In this document: in pieces, positions 27,984 through 39,884 of the stretch
How the letters are laid out: every line of letters starts with the position of its first letter
Numbering within the stretch: the stretch's first letter is position 1
Sequence record: KJ190157
Direction: 5' to 3' (one strand)
Origin: Escherichia phage vB_EcoS_FFH_1
Length of the DNA stretch: 64,000 bases
The notes under the pieces: generated by a model
Seen by the model: only the letters and a program-made list of their open reading frames with translations
Told to the model about the DNA's origin: nothing
Databases searched by the model: none
Position numbers and translations under genes: made by a program

Positions 27984-28059
27984 TGGTAGTTAGTAGTGGA
28001 TTTGAACCACTGTAGTCGCTCCGTATGAAGGAGGTGCATAACCACTCTGCCAACTAACT
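27984..28059 (-). tRNA. tRNA-Met(CAU) (or Ile2/fMet)
   Basis: hand-traced cloverleaf; T-arm AGTGG-ATTTGAA-CCACT; anticodon loop on plus strand GTATGAA; CCA encoded. Confidence 0.65.
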
Positions 28060-28155
28060 GTTATGTTTTACTAGACTAAGTAAGTATTCTTTATACTCTT
28101 TAGACCAATTAGCTTTTTTAAACTTTCCTGGACGCATAGTCTTAATTCCTAGATT

Positions 28156-28232
28156 TGGTACTCCGGGAGGGATTTAAACCCCCGATCTCTCGGTTATCAG
28201 CCGAGTGCTTTAGATCGCTAAGCTACCGAAGT
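28156..28232 (-). tRNA. tRNA-Ile(GAU)
   Basis: perfect anticodon stem CTCGG/CCGAG, loop TTATCAG. Confidence 0.7.
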
Positions 28233-28247
28233 ATTAGAATATTTACA

Positions 28248-28538
28248 TCATACACTGTCTAAGTAAGAAGTATAATGGAATTTAGCTTCTCCAGTCTTAT
28301 CTACTTCTACCTCAGTTCGTGGTACTTGACGAACCACACCATGAATCATCTTATAGCGAATGCCTTTAGCTGGTTCATGATCTTTTGGGAATACTTGTTT
28401 AACCGTTACTACTTTATATCCTTCACGCGGTGTTAACACTACTACTTGATCACCTTCTTTGATTTTCCAAGAAGATGGAAATTCATAGGTATATCTTTGA
28501 CCACCAGTTTGGAATACTACAGAAAGATAACGTTTCAT
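28248..28538 (-). CDS. hypothetical protein
   Basis: 96 aa; promoter at 28569-28597. Confidence 0.5.
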   Translation of the reverse strand: MKRYLSVVFQTGGQRYTYEFPSSWKIKEGDQVVVLTPREGYKVVTVKQVFPKDHEPAKGIRYKMIHGVVRQVPRTEVEVDKTGEAKFHYTSYLDSV

Positions 28539-28568
28539 TTGGTTTCCCTCTCATTAATTTATATAGAT

Positions 28569-28597
28569 ATTATAACAAGAAATAAGAGAGAAGGCAA
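28569..28597 (-). promoter_or_regulatory. T5-type early sigma70 promoter
   Basis: TTGCCT, 17 bp, TATAAT. Confidence 0.65.
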
Positions 28598-28602
28598 ATG
28601 AA

Positions 28603-28677
28603 TTTTTAAATTTGGTGCTCCCACCAGGAATCGAACCCGGTTCAGATGCTTACAAGGCAACTGCATCGCCAGCAATG
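28603..28677 (-). tRNA. tRNA-Thr(UGU)
   Basis: T-loop AATCGAA, D-stem GCAT/ATGC, loop TTACAAG; one anticodon-stem mismatch. Confidence 0.55.
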
Positions 28678-28854
28678 CTTTAGGAGCGATGATCCCGTTA
28701 TTTCAACGGGATTTCTTTTTCAATAACAGGAGACTTATCAGTCATAACTGTCATTGCCATTTGTTGTAGAAATTCAAAGGTGAAGGCTACACGTTCTTCA
28801 CCAATCTCTACTTCTACACGTTTCTTTTGTTTATCGATCTTGACTTTTAGGTTG

Positions 28855-29076
28855 TCAGCCATCTTCGGGTTCTCGTTGCTGCGCTACTTCTAGCCAGTCT
28901 GGTAGAAGAAACTTTGTACGAAATTCTTCGTAAGTTTCTTTGGGATAAAAGCTAAAACCTCCTTTCTCATCATTCAGGATAACAGAACCGTCAGTTTGTT
29001 CGTATGCTCGGTATGTTTCCCCAATAACAATAACTCGTTTATCAGTACTTTTATTACGAAACTCAAAAACGTGCAT
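28855..29076 (-). CDS. hypothetical protein
   Basis: 73 aa between tRNA genes. Confidence 0.4.
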   Translation of the reverse strand: MHVFEFRNKSTDKRVIVIGETYRAYEQTDGSVILNDEKGGFSFYPKETYEEFRTKFLLPDWLEVAQQREPEDG

Positions 29077-29092
29077 AATGTTCCCTTAAAGT

Positions 29093-29168
29093 TGGAGCGG
29101 CTAGAGGGAATCGAACCCTACTCAGCGAGGCTTGGAAGGCCTGCGACACAACCCGTGTGCTTAACCGC
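29093..29168 (-). tRNA. tRNA-Gly(UCC)
   Basis: T-loop AATCGAA; anticodon loop TTGGAAG. Confidence 0.6.
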
Positions 29169-29176
29169 TTATTGTT

Positions 29177-29254
29177 TGGCAGGGGATATTGGATTTGAAC
29201 CAATGATCTCGACTTCAAAGGCCGAAGCTTTAGACCAGGCTAAGCTAATCCCCA
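29177..29254 (-). tRNA. tRNA-Gln(UUG)
   Basis: perfect T-arm ATTGG-ATTTGAA-CCAAT; loop TTCAAAG. Confidence 0.6.
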
Positions 29255-29260
29255 ACTGTT

Positions 29261-29336
29261 TGGCAGAAGGTAGTGGGTTCGAACCACTGATCGGGGTTTC
29301 AGAGACCCCAGCCTTAACCGACTTGGCTAACCTTCT
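29261..29336 (-). tRNA. tRNA-Gln(CUG)
   Basis: perfect T-arm and anticodon stem GGGGT/ACCCC; loop TTCAGAG. Confidence 0.7.
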
Positions 29337-29520
29337 TCTTAATACTTTTTGGATCTTCTAAACGTTTGCCTTCATGATCTACTCGAATAACTCCGCACCC
29401 TTCGCAAACCACAACTACACCATAACCTTCTTTGACCTCAGCTTCTGTAATCAAACCAGAAAGATCACCAGTATCTCTGCCCCACATATCAATGGAGCAT
29501 TGTTTGCAGAAATCAGCCAT
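29314..29520 (-). CDS. small zinc-ribbon-like protein
   Basis: 68 aa; CKQC...CEGC. Confidence 0.45.
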   Translation of the reverse strand: MADFCKQCSIDMWGRDTGDLSGLITEAEVKEGYGVVVVCEGCGVIRVDHEGKRLEDPKSIKKKVSQVG

Positions 29521-29545
29521 ATTTTATTTCCTATTTAAGTTAATT

Positions 29546-29622
29546 TGGGGTGGCTAGTGGAATTCGAATCCACATAGGCCTGATTCACAATCAGGATCAT
29601 TAACCAATTATGATATAGCCAC
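29546..29622 (-). tRNA. tRNA-His(GUG)
   Basis: perfect T-arm and anticodon stem CCTGA/TCAGG; loop TTCACAA. Confidence 0.7.
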
Positions 29623-29862
29623 AATTGAAAACTCGCAGGGTTAGCGAAACCTTCCTCAATTAGCATGTTCTAGAATACTAATCAAGTTATCTCCTATTGC
29701 ACGCAGCTCAAGACGAGTACGAATTTTCAATTGTGGTGGCTCTCAGAAACTCTTCTACTCTAGCCTTAGCAGCTTACTCCCGAACGCATGTCGGGGAAGT
29801 CTTACTAAGCGCATCAAATAGCACCGTTACACTTTGAGCCATTGATATATCAAGAAGTAGAA

Positions 29863-29993
29863 GGACTTGAACCTTCACGAGATAGACCATTTATCTCAGC
29901 CGCTTTATGAGGTATATTGCAGAGAGTGGATGTTCCCTATAAACCTTTTAGGCAGCCCCGTCTACCGATTCCGGCATACTTCAAGATTTGGAG
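29863..29993 (-). ncRNA. tRNA-like stable RNA candidate (~130 nt)
   Basis: perfect T-arm GAAGG-ACTTGAA-CCTTC at 29870-29886 and 6-bp acceptor pairing 29863-29869 with 29987-29993, but 100-nt interior with no canonical anticodon arm. Confidence 0.35.
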
Positions 29994-29998
29994 GTAGG

Positions 29999-30093
29999 TA
30001 AGGGGATCGAACCCTTACACCGTATCACTACGATCAACCGATTTCAAGTCGGAGTCCAGCGCCAGCCATTGGATTGACCTACCGTATAAATTG
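29999..30093 (-). tRNA. tRNA-Ser(UGA), class II
   Basis: 95 nt with long variable arm; T-arm AAGGG-GATCGAA-CCCTT; loop TTTCAAG. Confidence 0.6.
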
Positions 30094-30105
30094 TTTGGCG
30101 GAAGA

Positions 30106-30196
30106 GGAGAGATTTGAACTCTCAAGCCGTTTTACCAGTCAGCCACTTTCCAAGCGGTTTTCGTCGCCAATTCGATTTGCTCTTCCAATAATAAGA
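30106..30196 (-). tRNA. class II tRNA, probably Ser(GGA)
   Basis: 91 nt; perfect T-arm and 7-bp acceptor; anticodon arm only resolved with mismatches (loop TTTCCAA). Confidence 0.4.
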
Positions 30197-30233
30197 TGAT
30201 GCCTCTATCACACCAGGCAGTTACGCCTCGCTG

Positions 30234-30300
30234 GGATTCGAACCCATTAAAACAGCTCAACCGAGATAGTAGATTTAATTTACTCTGACCATCAAATTTG
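30234..30300 (-). ncRNA. tRNA-like fragment (T-arm only)
   Basis: T-loop GGGATTCGAACCC present but no acceptor partner or anticodon arm found. Confidence 0.25.
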
Positions 30301-30308
30301 GTGCGTGA

Positions 30309-30385
30309 CAAGGGATTCGAACCCTCAAAACCCGACTTCTAAGGACGGTATGTATGCCAATTCCATCAATCACGCGTATTTGGTG
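30309..30385 (-). tRNA. tRNA with UAG anticodon (Leu by anticodon), class I shape
   Basis: 77 nt, short variable region; loop TTCTAAG; discriminator A. Confidence 0.45.
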
Positions 30386-30390
30386 GAGGA

Positions 30391-30469
30391 TAACGAATTC
30401 GAATCGTTCTGATGTCCTCGGTGCAAGCGAGGTGTCCACCCCTAGCAGACCCATCCCCCAAATTCTTTA
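30391..30469 (-). tRNA. tRNA-Ala(UGC)
   Basis: perfect anticodon stem CCTCG/CGAGG, loop GTGCAAG; G3-U70 wobble in acceptor stem. Confidence 0.7.
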
Positions 30470-30571
30470 GTTTACTAAGGCTATTAGCTCGGCGTAACTA
30501 CAGCACCTTCGCTTCGAGCTAATACCTTAGTGAACTATGATGAGGATTTCTCCCCATCAATTTATATAAAT

Positions 30572-30600
30572 ATTATAACAAGAAATTAAGCATTAAGCAA
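30572..30600 (-). promoter_or_regulatory. T5-type promoter driving tRNA block 30469-29999
   Basis: TTGCTT, 17 bp, TATAAT; tRNAs immediately downstream. Confidence 0.7.
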
Positions 30601-30952
30601 GTACATTTTTGCAGATTTCTTGTAGTTCCTTTACATCACGAACGTAAAGGTAGTCTGAACTTCCAGAGTGCATACTTTGCATAAACACACCCTCATCTGG
30701 CGCAGTATCCTTCAAAGTAATTCCTAACCAAAAAGCGGCAAAACGAGGTGTTACCTCACCTTGACTTGCCTTGAATACATCGGCTTCTGTGATCTCCTGA
30801 CCAGTAGAAAGTCCCATATACGGTACGTTCAGATCGATATCTTTGTAGAATTCAGCTAGGTCTTGTTCGAAGTCCCAACCTTTAGAGATAGCGAACTCTA
30901 TTGTTACATGACCGAAATAACCTTGAATCTTGTTTGATAGTTGCATTTGCAA
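30593..30952 (-). CDS. hypothetical protein
   Basis: 119 aa. Confidence 0.5.
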   Translation of the reverse strand: MQMQLSNKIQGYFGHVTIEFAISKGWDFEQDLAEFYKDIDLNVPYMGLSTGQEITEADVFKASQGEVTPRFAAFWLGITLKDTAPDEGVFMQSMHSGSSDYLYVRDVKELQEICKNVLA

Positions 30953-30961
30953 TTCCTTATT

Positions 30962-31035
30962 TTGAGTTAATTGGTACTCGGTGATAGAATCGAACTATCA
31001 CAACCGCCGTGTAAAGACGGGGTTCTCCCATTAAA
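30962..31035 (-). tRNA. tRNA-Val(UAC)
   Basis: perfect T-arm GATAG-AATCGAA-CTATC; loop GTGTAAA. Confidence 0.6.
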
Positions 31036-31178
31036 CTAACCGAGCAAAAGATTTGCTACTAAAAATGCTTCGAACAGAAATTCACAAAATCCCGCTAAAA
31101 ACATACCTATTGTAAAATCGGCAGAAAATACATAGGAATCTTTTATTTTCTGCTTCATTAAGTAAAACCAGATAGTCA

Positions 31179-31496
31179 TTAAAATCTCTCCATTCTAAAG
31201 CCAATGAAGTAAGGTGCATTACACGGAACATGCTTAAGATCTTTAAGAGTAATTTTACGTCCTAAGCGTCGTTCCATACAAGTGAAACATAGAACAATAT
31301 CTTTGGGCTGCCCTTTTCTTATCTGATCCCAGACCCAATCTTCAACCATACACATTTCATGGTATTGTTCACAGTCTCGACAATAATGACACTGATGTTC
31401 TGGTACTTTTTGATTTTTAATACACAGTTCAGTAAAGCGTTTTCCGGCTCTGCCAGACATTTCTGATATTGTTTCTAGAACTTTGTTAATATTCAT
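31179..31496 (-). CDS. Cys-rich hypothetical protein
   Basis: 105 aa; HQCHYCRDCEQYHEMC...CFTCMERR. Confidence 0.5.
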   Translation of the reverse strand: MNINKVLETISEMSGRAGKRFTELCIKNQKVPEHQCHYCRDCEQYHEMCMVEDWVWDQIRKGQPKDIVLCFTCMERRLGRKITLKDLKHVPCNAPYFIGFRMERF

Positions 31497-31513
31497 AACA
31501 AATTCCTTTAAAT

Positions 31514-31592
31514 TGGTAGATCGCCTGGGACTCGAACCCAGAACCTTCCGATTAAAAGTCGGATGCTACTAAACCTATTGAGCTAGCGACCT
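31514..31592 (-). tRNA. tRNA-Lys(UUU)
   Basis: perfect T-arm and anticodon stem TCCGA/TCGGA; loop TTAAAAG. Confidence 0.7.
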
Positions 31593-31781
31593 ATTAGTAG
31601 CCATTATATACTTCTTTAATAGAATGGACTTTTAAGTAAGGATGATTAATCCCAAACTCCGCCATTACTTCTTTTTCATCTTTTCCATAATGTGCAAGTA
31701 AGGATCTTGAGGTATTATTACCTAAACGTTTGTCATTTACTACTAATCGAAATACTTTCATTTCGAAATCCTCTATTAAAA

Positions 31782-31859
31782 TGGAAGCGGGTGCAGGAAT
31801 CGAACCTACCTCTTTCTAGCTTATGAGACTAGCGATCTCTACCAGAGATCTAACCCGCA
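31782..31859 (-). tRNA. tRNA-Met(CAU) (or Ile2)
   Basis: loop TTATGAG; mismatch at acceptor pair 1-72. Confidence 0.55.
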
Positions 31860-31865
31860 ATTGTT

Positions 31866-31941
31866 TGGTCAGTGCGGCAGGACTCGAACCTGCGACCCGA
31901 AGCATCCAAGGCTCCCACGCTACCAACTGCGCTACGCACTG
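31866..31941 (-). tRNA. tRNA-Pro(UGG)
   Basis: perfect T-arm GCAGG-ACTCGAA-CCTGC and acceptor; loop ATCCAAG. Confidence 0.65.
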
Positions 31942-31950
31942 TTAATTCTT

Positions 31951-32148
31951 TTATTGTGGGGGGATATTAATAATTCGTCCATCTACACAATAAACGGTAC
32001 TAGGGATTGTACTGTATATGTAGAAATTCTTTATATTACTCTCTCCGCCACAGAAATTTTTAGCAAATTCATACTCTTTATTAATGGTTGAGTCAAGTTT
32101 AAAACAACCAGTAAGTAGGAATACAGATAGCAATAAAACTTTCTTCAT
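31951..32148 (-). CDS. small lipoprotein
   Basis: 65 aa; lipobox LLTGC; promoter at 32181-32209. Confidence 0.5.
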   Translation of the reverse strand: MKKVLLLSVFLLTGCFKLDSTINKEYEFAKNFCGGESNIKNFYIYSTIPSTVYCVDGRIINIPPQ

Positions 32149-32180
32149 TTTGCTTTCCTTCTCTTCACTTTATAAAATAT

Positions 32181-32209
32181 ATTATACAGAGAATTAAGTA
32201 AAATAGCAA
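32181..32209 (-). promoter_or_regulatory. T5-type early sigma70 promoter
   Basis: TTGCTA, 17 bp, TATAAT. Confidence 0.7.
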
Positions 32210-32358
32210 ATGAATTTTTAATAAATTTACTTATTGTGTAGGCCACCTGGAGGCTATGAACCCCACGGCTGACAAAGAAGTTTGCGAGACTTCTCTTAAA
32301 AGCCAGAATAGACCCGCCGATCTATCGGAACCTACATAATAAGTAAACTTTATAGTGT

Positions 32359-32479
32359 CATTCTAGACAGGACTCGAACCTGTTATCACTTGTGCGGACT
32401 TACGAGAACCATTCTTTCACTCGAATCGAACGAGCTTCTGCCCTAGCCAAGCTGGTTTCCCCATCAACCACGCTAGAAT
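32359..32479 (-). ncRNA. tRNA-like stable RNA candidate (~120 nt)
   Basis: perfect T-arm ACAGG-ACTCGAA-CCTGT at 32367-32383 and perfect 7-bp acceptor pairing 32360-32366 with 32473-32479; long interior. Confidence 0.35.
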
Positions 32480-32601
32480 GTTTGATTGTTTTCAGTGCAA
32501 GAGTCCGAGTCTTGGACACGACCGCTTCGCAAGTACATAGGCAGCTTATCATGAGTCAGCACTTCCGAATTGCTAGCCCCGTGTTCTGCACTGAAATTTT
32601 A

Positions 32602-32949
32602 TTAGTTTAACCGTAAAGTATTATCTACTTCACCATTAATTGTTCGGCATTCCTCTGGGATTGCCGGTGTAGCCTTGTATTCCCACCACTCAGCACCATC
32701 ATATTCCCCACGTTCTAGCCAAGTTCCATCGGCAAACCATACATTACCATAAAGTAATTGTCCACCGTATCCAGAATCATATTCAAAGTCTAGGTTATTA
32801 AGAAACCCCTCAATGTCTTCTTCTGTATAATCTAAAGGTAATACCCAGACTTTTTTGTCCCCATAATACCCAAATTCTATTTTAATACACTTAACTTTAG
32901 AATTGGTATTTTTTAAGGCGAGTAACAGCTCTTCTTTAGCATTACGCAT
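32602..32949 (-). CDS. hypothetical protein
   Basis: 115 aa. Confidence 0.5.
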   Translation of the reverse strand: MRNAKEELLLALKNTNSKVKCIKIEFGYYGDKKVWVLPLDYTEEDIEGFLNNLDFEYDSGYGGQLLYGNVWFADGTWLERGEYDGAEWWEYKATPAIPEECRTINGEVDNTLRLN

Positions 32950-32974
32950 AGTATATTCTCATACTGAATTAAGT

Positions 32975-33051
32975 TGGCGCGACCGATGGGATTTGAACCC
33001 ACATTCTCTCCCGTGACAGGGGAGTACCATTACCAAGCCAGCCCCGGTCGC
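32975..33051 (-). tRNA. tRNA-Asp(GUC)
   Basis: perfect anticodon stem CTCCC/GGGAG, loop GTGACAG; perfect acceptor. Confidence 0.75.
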
Positions 33052-33060
33052 ATAATTCAT

Positions 33061-33246
33061 TTACTCAGCTTTGAGTTTTTCAATAGCTGCATTAAGTTCT
33101 TTAAGAAACTCTTTTCGTACATTAAGACGATTGAGACTTACTAGTATATCGTGTTTAAGTTCTTCGATGTATTTCTTTTCAACTTCAATATTGTTGATAG
33201 TGCTATCACGATGAACTTCTAGCTGCGCAATTACATTCTTGGACAT
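33061..33246 (-). CDS. hypothetical coiled-coil protein
   Basis: 61 aa. Confidence 0.4.
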   Translation of the reverse strand: MSKNVIAQLEVHRDSTINNIEVEKKYIEELKHDILVSLNRLNVRKEFLKELNAAIEKLKAE

Positions 33247-33348
33247 GCTTGTTTCCTCAGTTATTAATGAAAATGGTATCTGTGGCTGAATTCGATGTCA
33301 GCAATGATAGCTGGTTGGCTACCGGTTTACTTAACTCTACACAGAATT

Positions 33349-33431
33349 TGGCGGGCCGTGTAGGATTCGAACCTACGTTGTCTTTCGACATGGATTAACA
33401 GTCCACCGCCAAACCGCTTGGCTAACGACCC
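33349..33431 (-). tRNA. tRNA-Asn(GUU) with extended variable region
   Basis: perfect T-arm GTAGG-ATTCGAA-CCTAC; D-stem GCCA/TGGC; loop TTAACAG; 13-nt variable region. Confidence 0.55.
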
Positions 33432-33583
33432 TAAATTTATATTGCTGACTAGGATTTTCACCTAGACGGAGTTAGCACCGTAGCGTGTAGCGGCATACCT
33501 CTCCAAACCGTGCCTCATCTTTCAATTACGGAGACAGTGTTCCTACGCGTGCCTGAATTGATTCAACAATTCTTCCAGCAAAT

Positions 33584-33659
33584 TGGACGACCGCATGAGA
33601 TTTGAACTCACATAAAAAGGATTTGCAATCCTTCGCCTAAGCCCTTCAGCCAACGGTCG
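33584..33659 (-). tRNA. tRNA-Cys(GCA)
   Basis: perfect anticodon stem AAGGA/TCCTT, loop TTTGCAA. Confidence 0.7.
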
Positions 33660-33707
33660 GTTTATCTTGTTCTGTCATGTTGCTTCTCCAGTTCAATTTA
33701 TGTAATT

Positions 33708-33736
33708 ATTATACAGAACTTTTGGAAACTAAGCAA
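33708..33736 (-). promoter_or_regulatory. T5-type promoter driving tRNA block 33659-32975
   Basis: TTGCTT, 17 bp, TATAAT. Confidence 0.7.
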
Positions 33737-34016
33737 CTACATTTTTTAAGAATTTGATGCCTTTCTTTTTCTTCTTATATTTCCACGTTAATGGATTCTG
33801 TCGATTATGAACGCTTGAGATCTTTGTCTCGTCAAAGTTCTTCAATATCATGTAATCACAGGATAATTGTTCTAGTAGAATGTGATCACCGTCAAAAGCG
33901 TATACATAAGGCTGTTGACTAACACGATAATGATAGACTTTGTTAATTCTACGTTTCAGCGACTTATCAGCGCAGTAAATAAAGAAGTTTTCAGGATGCA
34001 TCAGCAGCTCCTTCAA
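33729..34016 (-). CDS. hypothetical protein
   Basis: 95 aa. Confidence 0.45.
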   Translation of the reverse strand: MKELLMHPENFFIYCADKSLKRRINKVYHYRVSQQPYVYAFDGDHILLEQLSCDYMILKNFDETKISSVHNRQNPLTWKYKKKKKGIKFLKNVVA

Positions 34017-34099
34017 TTTGGTGCACCCTGTTCGTATCGAACGAACCTCTCAAGCTCTTCAGGCAAGCGCTAATCCATCTCAGCTAAAGGTGCAAATTT

Positions 34100-34176
34100 T
34101 GGCAAACCTACTAGGACTCGAACCTAGACCGTACGGTTTTGGAGACCGACATGCTGTCCAGTAACACTCTAGGAAT
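34100..34176 (-). tRNA. tRNA-Trp(CCA)
   Basis: perfect T-arm CTAGG-ACTCGAA-CCTAG; loop TTTGGAG; two acceptor mismatches. Confidence 0.55.
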
Positions 34177-34184
34177 GCAGAAAT

Positions 34185-34261
34185 TGGCGTCCTGTGCGGG
34201 GATCGAACCCGCAAATCCTACCTTGAAAGGGTAGTGACTTTACCAGTTTGTCTAACAGGAC
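34185..34261 (-). tRNA. tRNA-Glu(UUC)
   Basis: perfect T-arm, anticodon stem CTACC/GGTAG and acceptor; loop TTGAAAG. Confidence 0.75.
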
Positions 34262-34268
34262 TTAAATT

Positions 34269-34359
34269 TGGTGTTGGATGATGGAGTCGAACCACCCGAG
34301 ACCCTTCCGAGTCGGCAGATTTACAGTCTGCTTCGCTACCTCTACGATACTAATCCAAC
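34269..34359 (-). tRNA. tRNA-Tyr(GUA), class II
   Basis: 91 nt with long variable arm; perfect anticodon stem GCAGA/TCTGC, loop TTTACAG. Confidence 0.7.
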
Positions 34360-34489
34360 ATATTTAGAAGTATTCAAAAATTCTCATTTAAACACTTTTA
34401 AATATGTTTTCAAATTAGGTAACTATTATACCAAGTTTTAAGGCACTGAGCAAGTCAAATTTTAAAGAACTTGCTCAGTGCTATATTAG

Positions 34490-34765
34490 TTAGTCGAACT
34501 TAGGAGTGACAGTTAAGGAGAACGGAAGTTCGAAAACTTCTTCACCCTCATTACTAACGGTAACTACACGACCTTTAAGTTCAGACATTAAAATATCAAT
34601 ATCAGCTTTTGCATCTGGAGCCATGCCAGCTTCAATACATTTAGCTTTAACCTCCGGTAGAAGATCTACGTTATAGAGATAGAGCCACTCAATCTCACCT
34701 TCCCAGTCTTCCCAGGATTTGCAGATTGCACTTTCAATACCAGTTGCTGCAACACGATTTTGCAT
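34490..34765 (-). CDS. hypothetical protein
   Basis: 91 aa; promoter 34785-34814. Confidence 0.5.
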   Translation of the reverse strand: MQNRVAATGIESAICKSWEDWEGEIEWLYLYNVDLLPEVKAKCIEAGMAPDAKADIDILMSELKGRVVTVSNEGEEVFELPFSLTVTPKFD

Positions 34766-34784
34766 TCGTTAACTCCTTCATCAA

Positions 34785-34814
34785 TTTATACAACTATTAT
34801 ATCAGAAATTTAAA
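34785..34814 (-). promoter_or_regulatory. T5-type early sigma70 promoter
   Basis: TTGCCT, 18 bp, TATAAT. Confidence 0.6.
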
Positions 34815-34855
34815 GCAAAAGGCAAGTACATTTTTAAAAATTCTGTTTGGAGGAG

Positions 34856-35062
34856 CTAAACTCCAGATTCTTCAGCTAAGTCTAGGCTAATAAGAGTTAT
34901 AGCCATAATTGCTGCACCGTGTTCTTTTTCTCCGGTGTTTTTAGCAGAGTCTATAATAGTCTTAATCTGTTCGTAATAGCCTTTTACTTCTTGTTCAATA
35001 CCTGCCTCGGCTATCATGCCTTTAGTCATGATTCGTTGCATAGTAATTTCACGGTTAGCCAT
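34856..35062 (-). CDS. hypothetical protein
   Basis: 68 aa. Confidence 0.4.
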   Translation of the reverse strand: MANREITMQRIMTKGMIAEAGIEQEVKGYYEQIKTIIDSAKNTGEKEHGAAIMAITLISLDLAEESGV

Positions 35063-35238
35063 GATGTTTCTCCAGCTTCATTTTTAATAGTTTACAAATG
35101 AAATCAACGTCTTCATCTGTACCTAGATCTCTATCTTCAAGAGTTGCCTTGAAGTTTTTAGTCAATTCCATGAGGATAACTTCTCTAGAACGACGTGTTG
35201 GCGGAGGTGGATGTCTATACATCTTATTTCCTTAGTTT

Positions 35239-35315
35239 GGTAGGGGTGGTGGGATTCGAACCCACAAAACCTGAATTTTAAGTCCAGTACCTATGCCAAT
35301 TCGATTACACCCCCG
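35239..35315 (-). tRNA. tRNA with UAA anticodon (Leu by anticodon), class I shape
   Basis: 77 nt; perfect T-arm GTGGG-ATTCGAA-CCCAC; loop TTTTAAG; discriminator A. Confidence 0.5.
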
Positions 35316-35321
35316 TGTAGT

Positions 35322-35510
35322 TTAGTCAATTACTTTTGAGGCTTCAAGGTAGTCGATATAGTGTATGTTTTCTACCGTAATCATATAATCTGCCACTTTA
35401 TCCATAGCTTGGGCTTCAGAGGTAGCTCTGGCTAACCTATATCCTTTTTTATATTCATCCGGGTATTCTCTATCTTGGATAAACACAACATAAACTATAT
35501 ATAGATCCAT
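35322..35510 (-). CDS. hypothetical protein
   Basis: 62 aa. Confidence 0.4.
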   Translation of the reverse strand: MDLYIVYVVFIQDREYPDEYKKGYRLARATSEAQAMDKVADYMITVENIHYIDYLEASKVID

Positions 35511-35529
35511 TTGTGACCTCTATTTAATT

Positions 35530-35607
35530 TGGTGGCTCCCCGAGGATTCGAACCTACGTACCTTCCGGTTATGAGCCGGGTGCTCATACCATATGAGCTT
35601 GAGAACC
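35530..35607 (-). tRNA. tRNA-Met(CAU), possibly initiator
   Basis: loop TTATGAG; three consecutive G-C pairs at base of anticodon stem; weak T-stem. Confidence 0.5.
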
Positions 35608-35613
35608 AGAATT

Positions 35614-35702
35614 TGGCGGAAGAAGCGGGAATCGAACCCACAAGGCTATATTTCAAACCGACAGATTAGCAATCTGCTGCAATACCGTTATGCTATTCTT
35701 CC
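35614..35702 (-). tRNA. tRNA-Ser(GCU), class II
   Basis: 89 nt; perfect acceptor; anticodon stem GCAGA/TCTGC; loop TTAGCAA. Confidence 0.6.
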
Positions 35703-39812: not shown

Positions 39813-39884
39813 TACCGACCGTAGGATTCGAACCTACATCTTCCACCAGTTACGGCTTGATAATACCAATTATACTAGGACGGC
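39813..39884 (-). ncRNA. tRNA-like element, identity unresolved
   Basis: perfect T-arm GTAGG-ATTCGAA-CCTAC and partial acceptor pairing, no convincing anticodon arm. Confidence 0.3.

What the first reader, a model, noticed from the sequence alone, without database searches (positions are those of the whole stretch)
27984..35702. tRNA cluster with non-canonical members: class-I-shaped Leu-anticodon tRNAs, Asn tRNA with a 13-nt variable region, three CAU tRNAs
Manual cloverleaf tracing finds about 24 minus-strand tRNAs here. Two tRNAs carrying Leu anticodons (UAG at 30309-30385, UAA at 35239-35315) have short variable regions and A73, whereas bacterial tRNA-Leu is class II. The GUU (Asn) tRNA at 33349-33431 carries a 13-nt variable region that can form a small hairpin, one base away from a Tyr GUA anticodon. 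Three tRNAs have CAU anticodons (Met, initiator or lysidine-Ile). These may affect which synthetase charges them and could represent decoding reprogramming by the phage.
Basis: partly seen in the sequence, partly recalled or inferred. Interest (0 to 1): 0.5.

Follow-up and report, generated by a model that had tools for sequence, protein, structure and literature searches.

The report
T5-type phage tRNA cluster, odd-shaped members
This is the well-known transfer-RNA gene cluster of a T5-like phage: its two leucine tRNAs really lack the usual long extra arm and its asparagine tRNA really has a small extra hairpin, but both keep the marks the host charging enzymes read, so they are unusual-looking ordinary tRNAs, not a rewiring of the genetic code.

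Summary
The window is a Tequintavirus (T5-like) genome. Positions 27984-35702 are its minus-strand tRNA cluster: 21 tRNAs by ARAGORN, one more by Rfam, and three by homology or relaxed search.

Both Leu-anticodon tRNAs are 77 nt with a 5-nt variable loop and A73. The true coordinates are UAG 30299-30375 and UAA 35238-35314. The Asn tRNA (33349-33431) has a 13-nt variable region that folds as GUC-GAAA-GAC.

The "decoding reprogramming" reading is not supported.
- **Leu:** both tRNAs keep the E. coli LeuRS identity set (A73, A15:U48, G18G19, A20a, a 3-bp D stem with G13·A22). LeuRS does not need the long arm. The UAG gene is 100% identical to BF23 tRNAL1, which is annotated as giving an effective amber suppressor.
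- **Asn:** the tRNA keeps GUU plus G73.
- **CAU tRNAs:** the three match BF23's curated Met, fMet and Ile2 genes.

Neither shape is unique. Short-arm Leu tRNAs occur in at least six phage groups, in 120 or more IMG/VR contigs with heavy covariation, and in Actinomycetota chromosomes. Ser and Tyr tRNAs always keep long arms. Long-arm Asn tRNAs recur in T5-like and T4-like phages with compensatory changes.

Verdict: real but ordinary, and essentially already annotated. It is a little-described exception to a textbook rule.

The parts
27984..35702 (-). tRNA gene cluster of a T5-like phage (about 25 tRNA genes, small ORFs, and stable tRNA-like RNAs)
   Evidence: ARAGORN; Rfam; 92-94% coverage at 95-98% identity to Tequintavirus genomes; feature-by-feature map onto the curated BF23 tRNA-region record
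30299..30375 (-). tRNA-Leu(UAG), 77 nt, class-I-shaped. Variable loop GUUUU, A73, A15:U48, D loop AAUUGGCAU, 3-bp D stem with G13·A22, U·U mismatch in the anticodon stem, A37
   Evidence: 100% identical to BF23 tRNAL1, whose record notes that a CUA anticodon gives an effective amber suppressor
35238..35314 (-). tRNA-Leu(UAA), 77 nt, class-I-shaped. Variable loop GUUUU, A73, A15:U48, the same D arm as the UAG species, G1·U72
   Evidence: at least 99% identical in 291 phage records
33349..33431 (-). tRNA-Asn(GUU), 83 nt, with a 13-nt variable region forming a 3-bp hairpin capped by GAAA; G73
   Evidence: homologues with compensatory changes in the hairpin
27984..28059 (-). elongator tRNA-Met(CAU)
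   Evidence: ARAGORN; 100% identical to BF23 tRNAM
31782..31859 (-). initiator tRNA-fMet(CAU): U1·U72 mismatch, A11:U24
   Evidence: ARAGORN; 100% identical to BF23 tRNAfM, annotated as the initiator
35530..35607 (-). tRNA-Ile2(CAU), presumed lysidine-modified
   Evidence: Rfam (40.3 bits); relaxed ARAGORN; 97.4% identical to BF23 tRNAI2
30096..30186 (-). tRNA-Ser(GGA), class II; missed by both ARAGORN and Rfam
   Evidence: 100% identical to BF23 tRNAS2
29093..29168 (-). tRNA-Gly(UCC), atypical; missed at default thresholds
   Evidence: 100% identical to BF23 tRNAG1; relaxed ARAGORN
29989..30085 (-). tRNA-Ser(UGA) variant with U73 and an irregular D arm
   Evidence: relaxed ARAGORN; partial match to BF23 tRNAS1; 5' end set by eye

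Best explanation
The region is the standard early-gene tRNA cluster of a T5-like phage. The host machinery transcribes and processes its tRNAs, and host synthetases charge them.

The two Leu-anticodon tRNAs are genuine leucine tRNAs that have lost the long variable arm. E. coli LeuRS reads the discriminator A73 and the tRNA elbow and core (the A15:U48 Levitt pair, G18G19, A20a). It reads neither the anticodon nor the long arm. So a class-I-shaped molecule that keeps those elements is still a LeuRS substrate. These tRNAs read UUA/UUG and CUA (plus wobble partners). UUA and CUA are the Leu codons this AT-rich phage uses heavily.

The Asn tRNA is charged by AsnRS through GUU and G73. Its extra 3-bp GNRA-capped hairpin is a conserved, tolerated or selected addition that does not change identity.

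The three CAU tRNAs divide the usual three jobs: elongator Met, initiator fMet, and Ile2 after lysidine modification.

Shown here: the structures, the presence of the identity elements, conservation and covariation, sequence identity to curated BF23 genes, and codon usage. Inferred: the actual charging specificity, the modifications, and the reason for the arm loss and gain.
For: - Phage identity: Tequintavirus, 95-98% identity.
- Structures: ARAGORN and Rfam agree on class-I geometry for both Leu tRNAs and on a 13-nt variable region for Asn.
- Leu identity: the segment comparison with E. coli leuW and leuZ shows the same 3-bp D stem, the same G13·A22, and an AAUUGG(Y)A D loop. It also shows A26, a variable region ending in U48, and A73. 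This matches the identity set summarised in PMC9976931, which also reports that tRNALeu variants lacking the long arm stay active.
- Specificity of the signature: the combined Leu core signature is found in 9 of 1464 non-Leu phage tRNAs. Among the cultured-phage, window and E. coli loci it occurs only in Leu-anticodon tRNAs.
- Function in vivo: BF23 tRNAL1 is identical to the window gene and is annotated as yielding an effective amber suppressor.
- Selection: 122 distinct phage tRNAs of the same length pair canonically at 98% of stem positions, against 60% in shuffles, with 3-6 standard pair types at every stem position except 54:62.
- Distribution: short-arm Leu tRNAs occur in Tequintavirus, Seunavirus, Avunavirus, Felixounavirus, Vibrio Demerecviridae and Lahexavirus. 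They occur in 120 or more IMG/VR contigs and in bacterial genomes. Phage Ser (125/125) and Tyr (48/48) tRNAs keep long arms.
- Asn: GUU plus G73 in all long-arm homologues but two (a viral contig with U73 and a bacterial locus with C73). The hairpin stems covary: GUC/GAC, GUUC/GGAC, AUCC/GGAU, GUCA/UGAC.
- Codon use in window ORFs: UUA is 24.7% and CUA 17.5% of Leu codons.
- CAU tRNAs: 100%, 100% and 97.4% identical to BF23 tRNAM, tRNAfM and tRNAI2.
Against: - No aminoacylation or tRNA-seq data for these exact molecules were available here, so charging is inferred from identity elements.
- The BF23 suppressor note does not say which amino acid is inserted.
- Single-sequence MFE folding does not return the cloverleaf for either Leu tRNA. 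The cloverleaf lies 3.8-3.9 kcal/mol above the MFE. The same is true of E. coli leuW.
- The Leu(UAG) tRNA has a U·U mismatch in its anticodon stem and A37 where host Leu(NAG) tRNAs have G37. Decoding properties could therefore differ somewhat.
- A14, A15, G18G19 and A20a in the IMG/VR set are partly fixed by the search pattern. Only U48, A73, the D-stem geometry and the stem covariation are independent of it.
- No reason for the Asn hairpin was established.
Confidence: 0.85

Rival explanations
1. The unusual variable regions are adaptations against host tRNA-targeting defences. Losing the arm in Leu and gaining a hairpin in Asn would let the phage copies escape nucleases, or other effectors, that recognise the host versions. 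Identity is unchanged, so translation continues when host tRNAs are destroyed. This would add to the best explanation, not replace it.
For: - T5-family tRNAs are documented to counter tRNA-targeting systems: retron Eco7 and tRNA-Tyr, as cited in PMC10644984, and the PARIS defence system (PMC11464382, listed).
- Phage tRNAs show anticodon-loop changes relative to the host (PMC10264068; PMC12482277).
- The window Leu(UAG) loop differs from leuW at positions 32, 37 and 38.
- Arm remodelling recurs in unrelated phage groups.
Against: - I found no nuclease shown to use the Leu long arm, or the Asn variable loop, as a recognition element.
- Short-arm Leu tRNAs also sit as single-copy chromosomal genes in Actinomycetota. 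The shape therefore does not need a phage-defence rationale.
- T5/BF23 carry an ordinary 78-nt Asn at the same position.
- Simple neutral loss of a dispensable arm explains the Leu pattern.
Confidence: 0.12
2. Decoding reprogramming. The odd shapes would redirect charging: Leu-anticodon tRNAs charged with another amino acid, or the GUU tRNA charged by TyrRS. The phage would then recode UUA/CUA or AAY codons.
For: - The shapes depart from the class expected for their anticodons.
- The Asn variable region is 13 nt long.
Against: - Both Leu tRNAs have the full LeuRS identity set, and the Asn tRNA has G73 rather than the A73 seen in 46 of 48 phage Tyr tRNAs.
- Synthetases other than LeuRS, SerRS and AlaRS read their own anticodons. 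G3:U70 (AlaRS) and a long arm (SerRS) are both absent.
- GUU plus G73 is conserved in all long-arm Asn homologues but two.
- The phage uses UUA and CUA at 42% of Leu codons in ordinary conserved proteins, so recoding would be proteome-wide.
Confidence: 0.02
3. The odd members are decaying pseudo-tRNAs or tRNA-like RNAs with no role in translation, like the stable RNAs of unknown function in the same cluster.
For: - The cluster does contain tRNA-like RNAs of unknown function: rna1, rna2 and rna3.
- Some degenerate tRNA-like sequences exist, such as 39813-39884 with a 6-nt anticodon loop and a chimeric Asn gene in phage Kenya-K38.
- MFE folds of the Leu tRNAs are not cloverleaves.
Against: - Sequence identity is at least 99% across hundreds of phage genomes.
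- Covariation is strong in all four stems, and CCA is encoded.
- The BF23 suppressor annotation shows function on the ribosome.
- These are the only Leu tRNAs the phage carries, and they serve its most over-used Leu codons.
Confidence: 0.02

Closest known systems
tRNA gene region of phages T5 and BF23 (curated record NC_042564.1, Ksenzenko laboratory annotation)
   Same: Gene order and content match. Leu(UAG), Met, fMet, His, Asp, Ile1, Gly1 and Ser2 are 100% identical; Ile2 is 97.4% and Ser3 98.9%. The stable RNAs rna1, rna2, rna3, rnaI, rnaIII and rnaIV are all present.
   Different: - The window carries an 83-nt long-variable Asn allele in place of the ordinary 78-nt Asn of T5/BF23.
- It carries Leu(UAA), which the BF23 record lacks. 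T5 strains have it.
- It has divergent Tyr, Lys and Ser1 alleles.
E. coli tRNA-Leu (leuW UAG, leuZ UAA), canonical class II
   Same: A73, A15:U48, G18G19 in an AAUUGG/AAUCGG D loop with A20a, a 3-bp D stem with G13·A22, A26, and the same anticodons.
   Different: - The host tRNAs have a 13-15-nt variable arm with a 4-5-bp stem; the phage tRNAs have 5 unpaired nucleotides.
- The phage Leu(UAG) loop is CUUAGAA (A37); the host loop is UUUAGGU (G37).
Engineered E. coli tRNALeu variants lacking the long variable arm and/or the anticodon arm (summarised in PMC9976931)
   Same: A tRNALeu without the long arm remains a LeuRS substrate as long as A73 and the D/T-loop tertiary interactions are kept. The phage tRNAs look like natural counterparts of these constructs.
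   Different: Those are laboratory constructs assayed in vitro. The phage tRNAs are natural, full-length and conserved, and they must also work on the ribosome.
Animal mitochondrial tRNA-Leu(UUR)
   Same: A natural leucine tRNA with a short variable region whose identity rests mainly on A73 and A14 (PMC9976931).
   Different: It is charged by a mitochondrial LeuRS, has a floppy and degenerate structure, and has a different evolutionary origin.
Short-arm tRNA-Leu genes in other phages and in bacteria
   Same: The same length class (73-76 nt without CCA), A73 in about 95%, A15:U48 in 97%, and the same D-arm geometry. They occur in Felixounavirus, Vequintavirinae, Vibrio and Aeromonas phages, IMG/VR contigs, Actinomycetota chromosomes and tRNA arrays.
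   Different: Stem sequences and anticodons differ (all six Leu anticodons occur). The actinobacterial copies lack an encoded CCA and sit singly beside housekeeping genes.

Membership tests
E. coli-type leucine tRNA (LeuRS substrate) | Discriminator A73 | tested here: met
   Both tRNAs have A73.
E. coli-type leucine tRNA (LeuRS substrate) | Trans Levitt pair A15:U48 | tested here: met
   A at position 15 and U as the last variable-loop base in both. The same is seen in 97% of 158 phage short-arm Leu tRNAs.
E. coli-type leucine tRNA (LeuRS substrate) | G18G19 and A20a in the D loop; 3-bp D stem with a non-Watson-Crick 13:22 pair | tested here: met
   The D arm is GAAUUGGCAUA in both phage tRNAs, against AAAUUGGUAGA and GAAUCGGUAGA in leuW and leuZ. 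The 13:22 pair is non-canonical in 115 of 122 relatives.
E. coli-type leucine tRNA (LeuRS substrate) | Leu anticodon (NAG or YAA) | tested here: met
   UAG and UAA.
E. coli-type leucine tRNA (LeuRS substrate) | Actual charging with leucine by LeuRS | not testable with these tools
   Only indirect evidence. The BF23 record notes that tRNAL1 with a CUA anticodon is an effective amber suppressor. T5 is listed as encoding a tRNA-Leu in PMC4810235.
Class II (long-variable-arm) tRNA | Variable arm of 10 nt or more that forms a stem-loop | tested here: not met
   For both Leu tRNAs the variable loop is 5 nt, GUUUU. The 77-nt total length excludes a long arm.
Class II (long-variable-arm) tRNA | Variable arm of 10 nt or more that forms a stem-loop (Asn tRNA) | tested here: met
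   13 nt forming a GUC-GAAA-GAC hairpin in the MFE and centroid fold. Compensatory changes occur in homologues. At 3 bp, the arm is shorter than in Ser tRNAs.
Asparagine tRNA (AsnRS substrate) | Anticodon G34 U35 U36 plus discriminator G73 | tested here: met
   GUU and G73. The anticodon arm GGACUGUUAAUCC is shared by the long-arm relatives in PR1, S113, PM2 and Marfa. The identity rule is from PMC9976931.
Tyrosine tRNA (TyrRS substrate), considered for the GUU tRNA | Anticodon GUA and discriminator A73 | tested here: not met
   The anticodon is GUU and the discriminator is G73. Of 48 phage Tyr tRNAs, 46 have A73. A separate Tyr tRNA is present at 34269-34359.
Bacterial initiator tRNA-fMet (31782-31859) | Unpaired 1:72, A11:U24, three consecutive G:C pairs in the anticodon stem | tested here: inconclusive
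   The U1·U72 mismatch and A11:U24 are present, but only G30:C40 of the three G:C pairs. It is 100% identical to the gene that BF23 annotates as the initiator.
tRNA-Ile2 (lysidine-dependent, 35530-35607) | CAU anticodon converted to k2C34 by TilS and charged by IleRS | not testable with these tools
   The assignment rests on 97.4% identity to BF23 tRNAI2. Sequence alone cannot separate Met from Ile2 with certainty.

The most novel reading that the evidence does not exclude
Variable-arm remodelling is a general phage counter-defence strategy. Phages would delete the long arm from Leu tRNAs, and add hairpins to Asn and occasionally other tRNAs. Their copies would keep host synthetase identity but no longer be recognised by host or competitor tRNA-targeting nucleases or modification enzymes that read the elbow and variable region. 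On this reading, the T5-family Leu and Asn genes are immunity-evasion alleles as well as codon supplements.
Probability: 0.1. Interest if true: 0.65.

Novelty: already known. Interest (0 to 1): 0.3.

Why it matters
For this window the result is mainly a clarification. Nothing here suggests genetic-code reprogramming, and the genes are the long-studied T5/BF23 tRNA set.

The comparative by-product has modest value. Natural tRNA sets follow the synthetase identity rules worked out in vitro. The long arm is lost often in Leu, whose synthetase ignores it. It is never lost in Ser or Tyr, whose synthetases use it.

The textbook statement that bacterial-type tRNA-Leu is always class II has many exceptions in phages and in Actinomycetota. 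This matters for tRNA annotation pipelines and isotype classifiers. It also matters for anyone designing orthogonal or minimal Leu tRNAs.

Tried and rejected
- **Class II refolding.** I checked whether the Leu tRNAs could be refolded as class II. This is impossible at 77 nt, and ARAGORN, Infernal and RNAfold give no long arm.
- **MFE folding as a test of the cloverleaf.** It was uninformative. The cloverleaf is about 4 kcal/mol above the MFE for both Leu tRNAs, but E. coli leuW behaves the same way.
- **Literature.** Eight full-text searches looked for any description of short-arm phage tRNA-Leu or long-arm tRNA-Asn. I also read seven candidate papers. None discusses the variable arms. The 1980s T5 sequencing papers are not in the library, so prior description cannot be excluded.
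- **A nuclease with a long-arm preference.** The bacterial Schlafen paper and the Retron-Kva2 preprint report anticodon-loop or anticodon-arm cleavage and give no evidence for long-arm recognition.
- **Asn derived from Tyr.** I considered that the GUU tRNA is a Tyr tRNA with a mutated anticodon. The arm lengths are similar, but G73 and the anticodon arm conserved among its long-arm relatives argue for Asn identity. Descent could not be resolved.
- **Census limits.** The fraction of short-arm Leu tRNAs is conditional on an AAUUGG-type D loop and a GGTTCRANTCC T arm in the search pattern. It is not a true census.

Full report
**What the window is**

Megablast of 27984-35702 against 50,697 phage records gives 620 matching records. 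The best cover 92-94% of the query at 95-98% identity, and all are T5-like phages (Tequintavirus, Demerecviridae) such as NBEco001 and vB_EcoS_HdH2. The region is therefore the early-gene tRNA cluster that has been studied in T5 and BF23 since the 1970s.

**Checking the observation**

ARAGORN finds 22 tRNAs in the window. All are on the minus strand, and 21 lie inside 27984-35702. The Rfam tRNA model finds 23. It adds a CAU tRNA at 35533-35607 and a weak hit at 39813-39884, but it does not report the Ala tRNA at 30381-30459.

- The two Leu-anticodon tRNAs are at 30299-30375 (UAG) and 35238-35314 (UAA).
- Each is 77 nt including an encoded CCA. Each has a 5-nt variable loop (GUUUU) and A73.
- The Asn tRNA is exactly at 33349-33431. 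It is 83 nt, with G73 and a 13-nt variable region.
- RNAfold gives the Asn tRNA a textbook cloverleaf plus a fifth hairpin, GUC-GAAA-GAC, as both the MFE and the centroid structure.
- There are three CAU tRNAs: 27984-28059, 31782-31859 and 35530-35607.

Relaxed ARAGORN adds Gly(UCC) at 29093-29168 and a Ser(UGA) variant near 29989-30085. Homology to BF23 adds Ser(GGA) at 30096-30186.

**What the curated relatives say**

The BF23 tRNA-region record NC_042564.1 carries detailed annotation from the laboratory that sequenced it. I mapped its features onto the window with blastn.

| Window coordinates | BF23 feature | Identity |
|---|---|---|
| 30299-30375 | tRNAL1 (Leu UAG) | 100% |
| 27984-28059 | tRNAM (elongator Met) | 100% |
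| 31782-31859 | tRNAfM (annotated initiator) | 100% |
| 35530-35607 | tRNAI2 (Ile, CAU) | 97.4% |

- The tRNAL1 note reads [quoted passage not shown]. The short-arm molecule therefore works on the E. coli ribosome, and its charging does not depend on its anticodon.
- The three CAU genes are the usual Met, fMet and Ile2 trio.
- The stable RNAs that the record annotates as tRNA-like (rna1, rna2, rna3) or as of unknown function (rnaI, rnaIII, rnaIV) are also present.
- BF23, and by its note T5, has an ordinary 78-nt Asn tRNA at the position where the window has the 83-nt allele.

**Why the short-arm tRNAs are leucine tRNAs**

The identity review PMC9976931 states that in E. coli A73 is crucial for leucine identity, while the anticodon and the long variable arm are not. 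It lists the A15:U48 trans-Levitt pair, G18G19 and A20a as essential. [quoted passage not shown]

I fetched E. coli K-12 leuW and leuZ and compared them with the phage tRNAs segment by segment. The phage tRNAs have:

- the same 3-bp D stem with G13·A22;
- the same D-loop layout (GAAUUGGCAUA, against AAAUUGGUAGA in leuW and GAAUCGGUAGA in leuZ);
- A26, a variable region ending in U48, and A73.

In effect they are host-type Leu tRNAs with the arm hairpin removed.

I then scored a combined signature: 3-bp D stem, 10-11-nt D-loop region, A14A15, G18G19 in register, U48 and A73. It occurs in 9 of 1464 non-Leu phage tRNAs. Among the cultured-phage, window and E. coli loci examined, only Leu-anticodon tRNAs carry it, including leuW, leuZ and both window genes.

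Elimination points the same way. The other synthetases that ignore the anticodon need G3:U70 (AlaRS) or a long arm (SerRS), and both are absent here.

**The shape is common, not unique**

ARAGORN was run on loci from blastn hits. It finds Leu tRNAs with 4-7-nt variable loops and A73 in these groups:

- Tequintavirus (window, HdH2, BF23);
- Seunavirus (Cronobacter phage EspYZU15 and Salmonella phage R7);
- Avunavirus;
- Felixounavirus, with three per genome (UAG, CAA, UAA);
- Vibrio Demerecviridae (JSF12, PG07);
- Aeromonas Lahexavirus.

Some of these genomes also carry a class II Leu tRNA, as do a T4-like phage (PM2) and the jumbo phage 201phi2-1.

A pattern scan of IMG/VR for class-I-length Leu-type tRNAs hit its 120-locus limit. 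Those loci hold 158 distinct short-arm Leu tRNAs covering all six Leu anticodons. A73 occurs in 151 of them and A15:U48 in 153.

For 122 distinct sequences of identical length, 98% of stem positions form standard pairs, against 60% after shuffling. Every stem position except 54:62 shows 3-6 standard pair types. These are therefore selected, functional tRNAs.

It returned 96 new loci, and the other 24 were loci already found with the short-gap pattern (locus numbering). Among loci matching this D-loop and T-arm pattern, roughly one in five carries the short-arm form.

In the same loci every Ser (125/125) and Tyr (48/48) tRNA keeps a long arm. This fits the known use of the arm by SerRS and TyrRS, and its irrelevance to LeuRS.

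The same pattern also hit its limit in bacterial genomes, giving 160 short-arm Leu tRNAs in 120 loci.

- In 82 loci the short-arm Leu is the only tRNA. Most of these are a roughly 74-nt tRNA-Leu(UAA) without encoded CCA in Nocardia, Mycobacterium, Gordonia, Rhodococcus, Arthrobacter, Rothia and Bifidobacterium.
- In Rhodococcus and Dietzia the gene lies just downstream of a Ppx/GppA phosphatase gene, and in Nocardia within a few kilobases of one. This indicates a native, vertically inherited gene.
- Other loci are tRNA arrays, for example in cyanobacteria.

The premise that bacterial tRNA-Leu is class II is therefore a rule with many exceptions.

**The Asn tRNA**

Blastn finds the 83-nt allele at 90% identity or more in 283 phage records. 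More distant full-length relatives occur in:

- Providencia phage PR1 (85 nt);
- Salmonella phage S113 (86 nt);
- the T4-like Pectobacterium phage PM2 (85 nt);
- many Klebsiella and Enterobacter T4-like phages (85 nt);
- Klebsiella phage Marfa (83 nt).

The variable hairpin is conserved as a structure with compensatory changes:

| Phage | Hairpin |
|---|---|
| window | GUC-GAAA-GAC |
| PR1 | GUUC-GAAA-GGAC |
| S113 | AUCC-GCAA-GGAU |
| PM2 | GUCA-GAAA-UGAC |

An Avunavirus has a 19-nt arm, and about nine IMG/VR contigs have other hairpins. All but two of the 16 keep GUU plus G73; the exceptions are a viral contig with U73 and a bacterial locus with C73. GUU plus G73 is the asparagine identity set. 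Phage Tyr tRNAs have A73 in 46 of 48 cases, and the window has its own Tyr tRNA at 34269-34359.

The GUU tRNA is therefore an Asn tRNA with an extra small arm. Why the arm is kept is unknown.

**Function**

In 22 window ORFs of 200 codons or more, UUA makes up 24.7% and CUA 17.5% of Leu codons. From general knowledge, these two codons are minor in E. coli, and each is served by a single-copy host gene (leuZ, leuW). The two phage Leu tRNAs cover exactly these codons, which fits the classical codon-supplement role.

Recent work also assigns T5-family tRNAs a role in surviving tRNA-targeting defences (papers located). The Leu(UAG) anticodon loop differs from leuW at positions 32, 37 and 38. An independent study reports the same for a Felix-like phage.

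Whether the variable-arm changes contribute to such escape is untested. I rate it about 10% likely and record it as the most novel reading that is still open.

**Caveats**

- No charging data exist for these exact molecules.
- The suppressor note does not name the inserted amino acid.
- Single-sequence MFE folding does not recover the cloverleaf for the Leu tRNAs, although it fails for leuW too.
- Several D-loop positions in the metagenomic set are fixed by the search pattern.
- I found no paper describing these shapes, but the original T5 sequencing literature is outside the searchable library.

**Verdict**

The genes are known and annotated. The reprogramming interpretation is not supported. 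The oddities are instances of a widespread, rule-consistent and little-discussed plasticity of the tRNA variable arm.

Noticed in passing
L017 151-233 (Salmonella phage Kenya-K38): The Asn gene is a chimera. Its 5' two-thirds come from the 83-nt long-arm allele and its 3' end from the T5/BF23 78-nt allele, joined in the shared T loop. The acceptor stem no longer pairs, so it looks like a recombination-generated pseudo-tRNA.
   Followed up: partly
window 31782-31859 (-): The tRNA annotated as initiator fMet has a U1·U72 mismatch and A11:U24. It has only one (G30:C40) of the three consecutive G:C pairs that normally mark bacterial initiators, and U73 in place of A73.
   Followed up: partly
window 30299-30375 (-): Leu(UAG) has A37 where host Leu(NAG) tRNAs have G37, the m1G37 site. 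It also has a U·U mismatch in the anticodon stem. A37 occurs in 46 of 82 short-arm and 26 of 83 long-arm phage Leu(NAG) tRNAs.
   Followed up: partly
window 29093-29168, 29989-30085, 30096-30186, 35530-35607 (-): Four tRNA genes are missed by default ARAGORN: Gly UCC, a Ser UGA variant with U73, Ser GGA, and Ile2 CAU. Rfam misses three of the four. Their stems are irregular. Ser GGA is not found even at relaxed thresholds, yet it is identical to BF23 tRNAS2.
   Followed up: partly
window 29624-29985, 32235-32480, 33274-33346 (-): These are homologues of the BF23 stable RNAs rnaIII, rnaI, rna1, rnaIV, rna2 and rna3, annotated there as tRNA-like or of unknown function. rna3 directly follows the Asn tRNA.
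   Followed up: no
window 39813-39884 (-): Rfam reports a tRNA hit (35.5 bits) that ARAGORN calls only at relaxed settings. It has a 6-nt anticodon loop and no assignable anticodon, so it is a degenerate tRNA-like element outside the main cluster.
   Followed up: partly
L234-L313 (bacterial genome loci), e.g. L243 1818-1894, L276 2294-2368, L253 4324-4398: A single-copy, class-I-shaped tRNA-Leu(UAA) of about 74 nt with no encoded CCA occurs in many Actinomycetota (Nocardia, Mycobacterium, Rhodococcus, Gordonia, Arthrobacter, Rothia, Bifidobacterium). In Rhodococcus and Dietzia it lies just downstream of a Ppx/GppA phosphatase gene, and in Nocardia a few kilobases from one. It looks like a native chromosomal gene.
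   Followed up: partly
IMG/VR loci L018-L233: ARAGORN also calls tRNAs with long variable regions (more than 7 nt) for Ile (12) and Pro (6), and a few of 10-16 nt for Lys, Gln and Thr. The PM2 Tyr tRNA has only 8 variable nucleotides. These calls were not inspected individually.
   Followed up: no
window 28590-28620, 30585-30625, 32195-32240, 33715-33760, 34430-34480, 34800-34850 (-): Near-identical promoter-like sequences (…TTGC…N17…TATAAT) recur before the small ORFs that lie between the tRNA groups. They match the positions of promoters P11-P15 annotated in the BF23 record.
   Followed up: no
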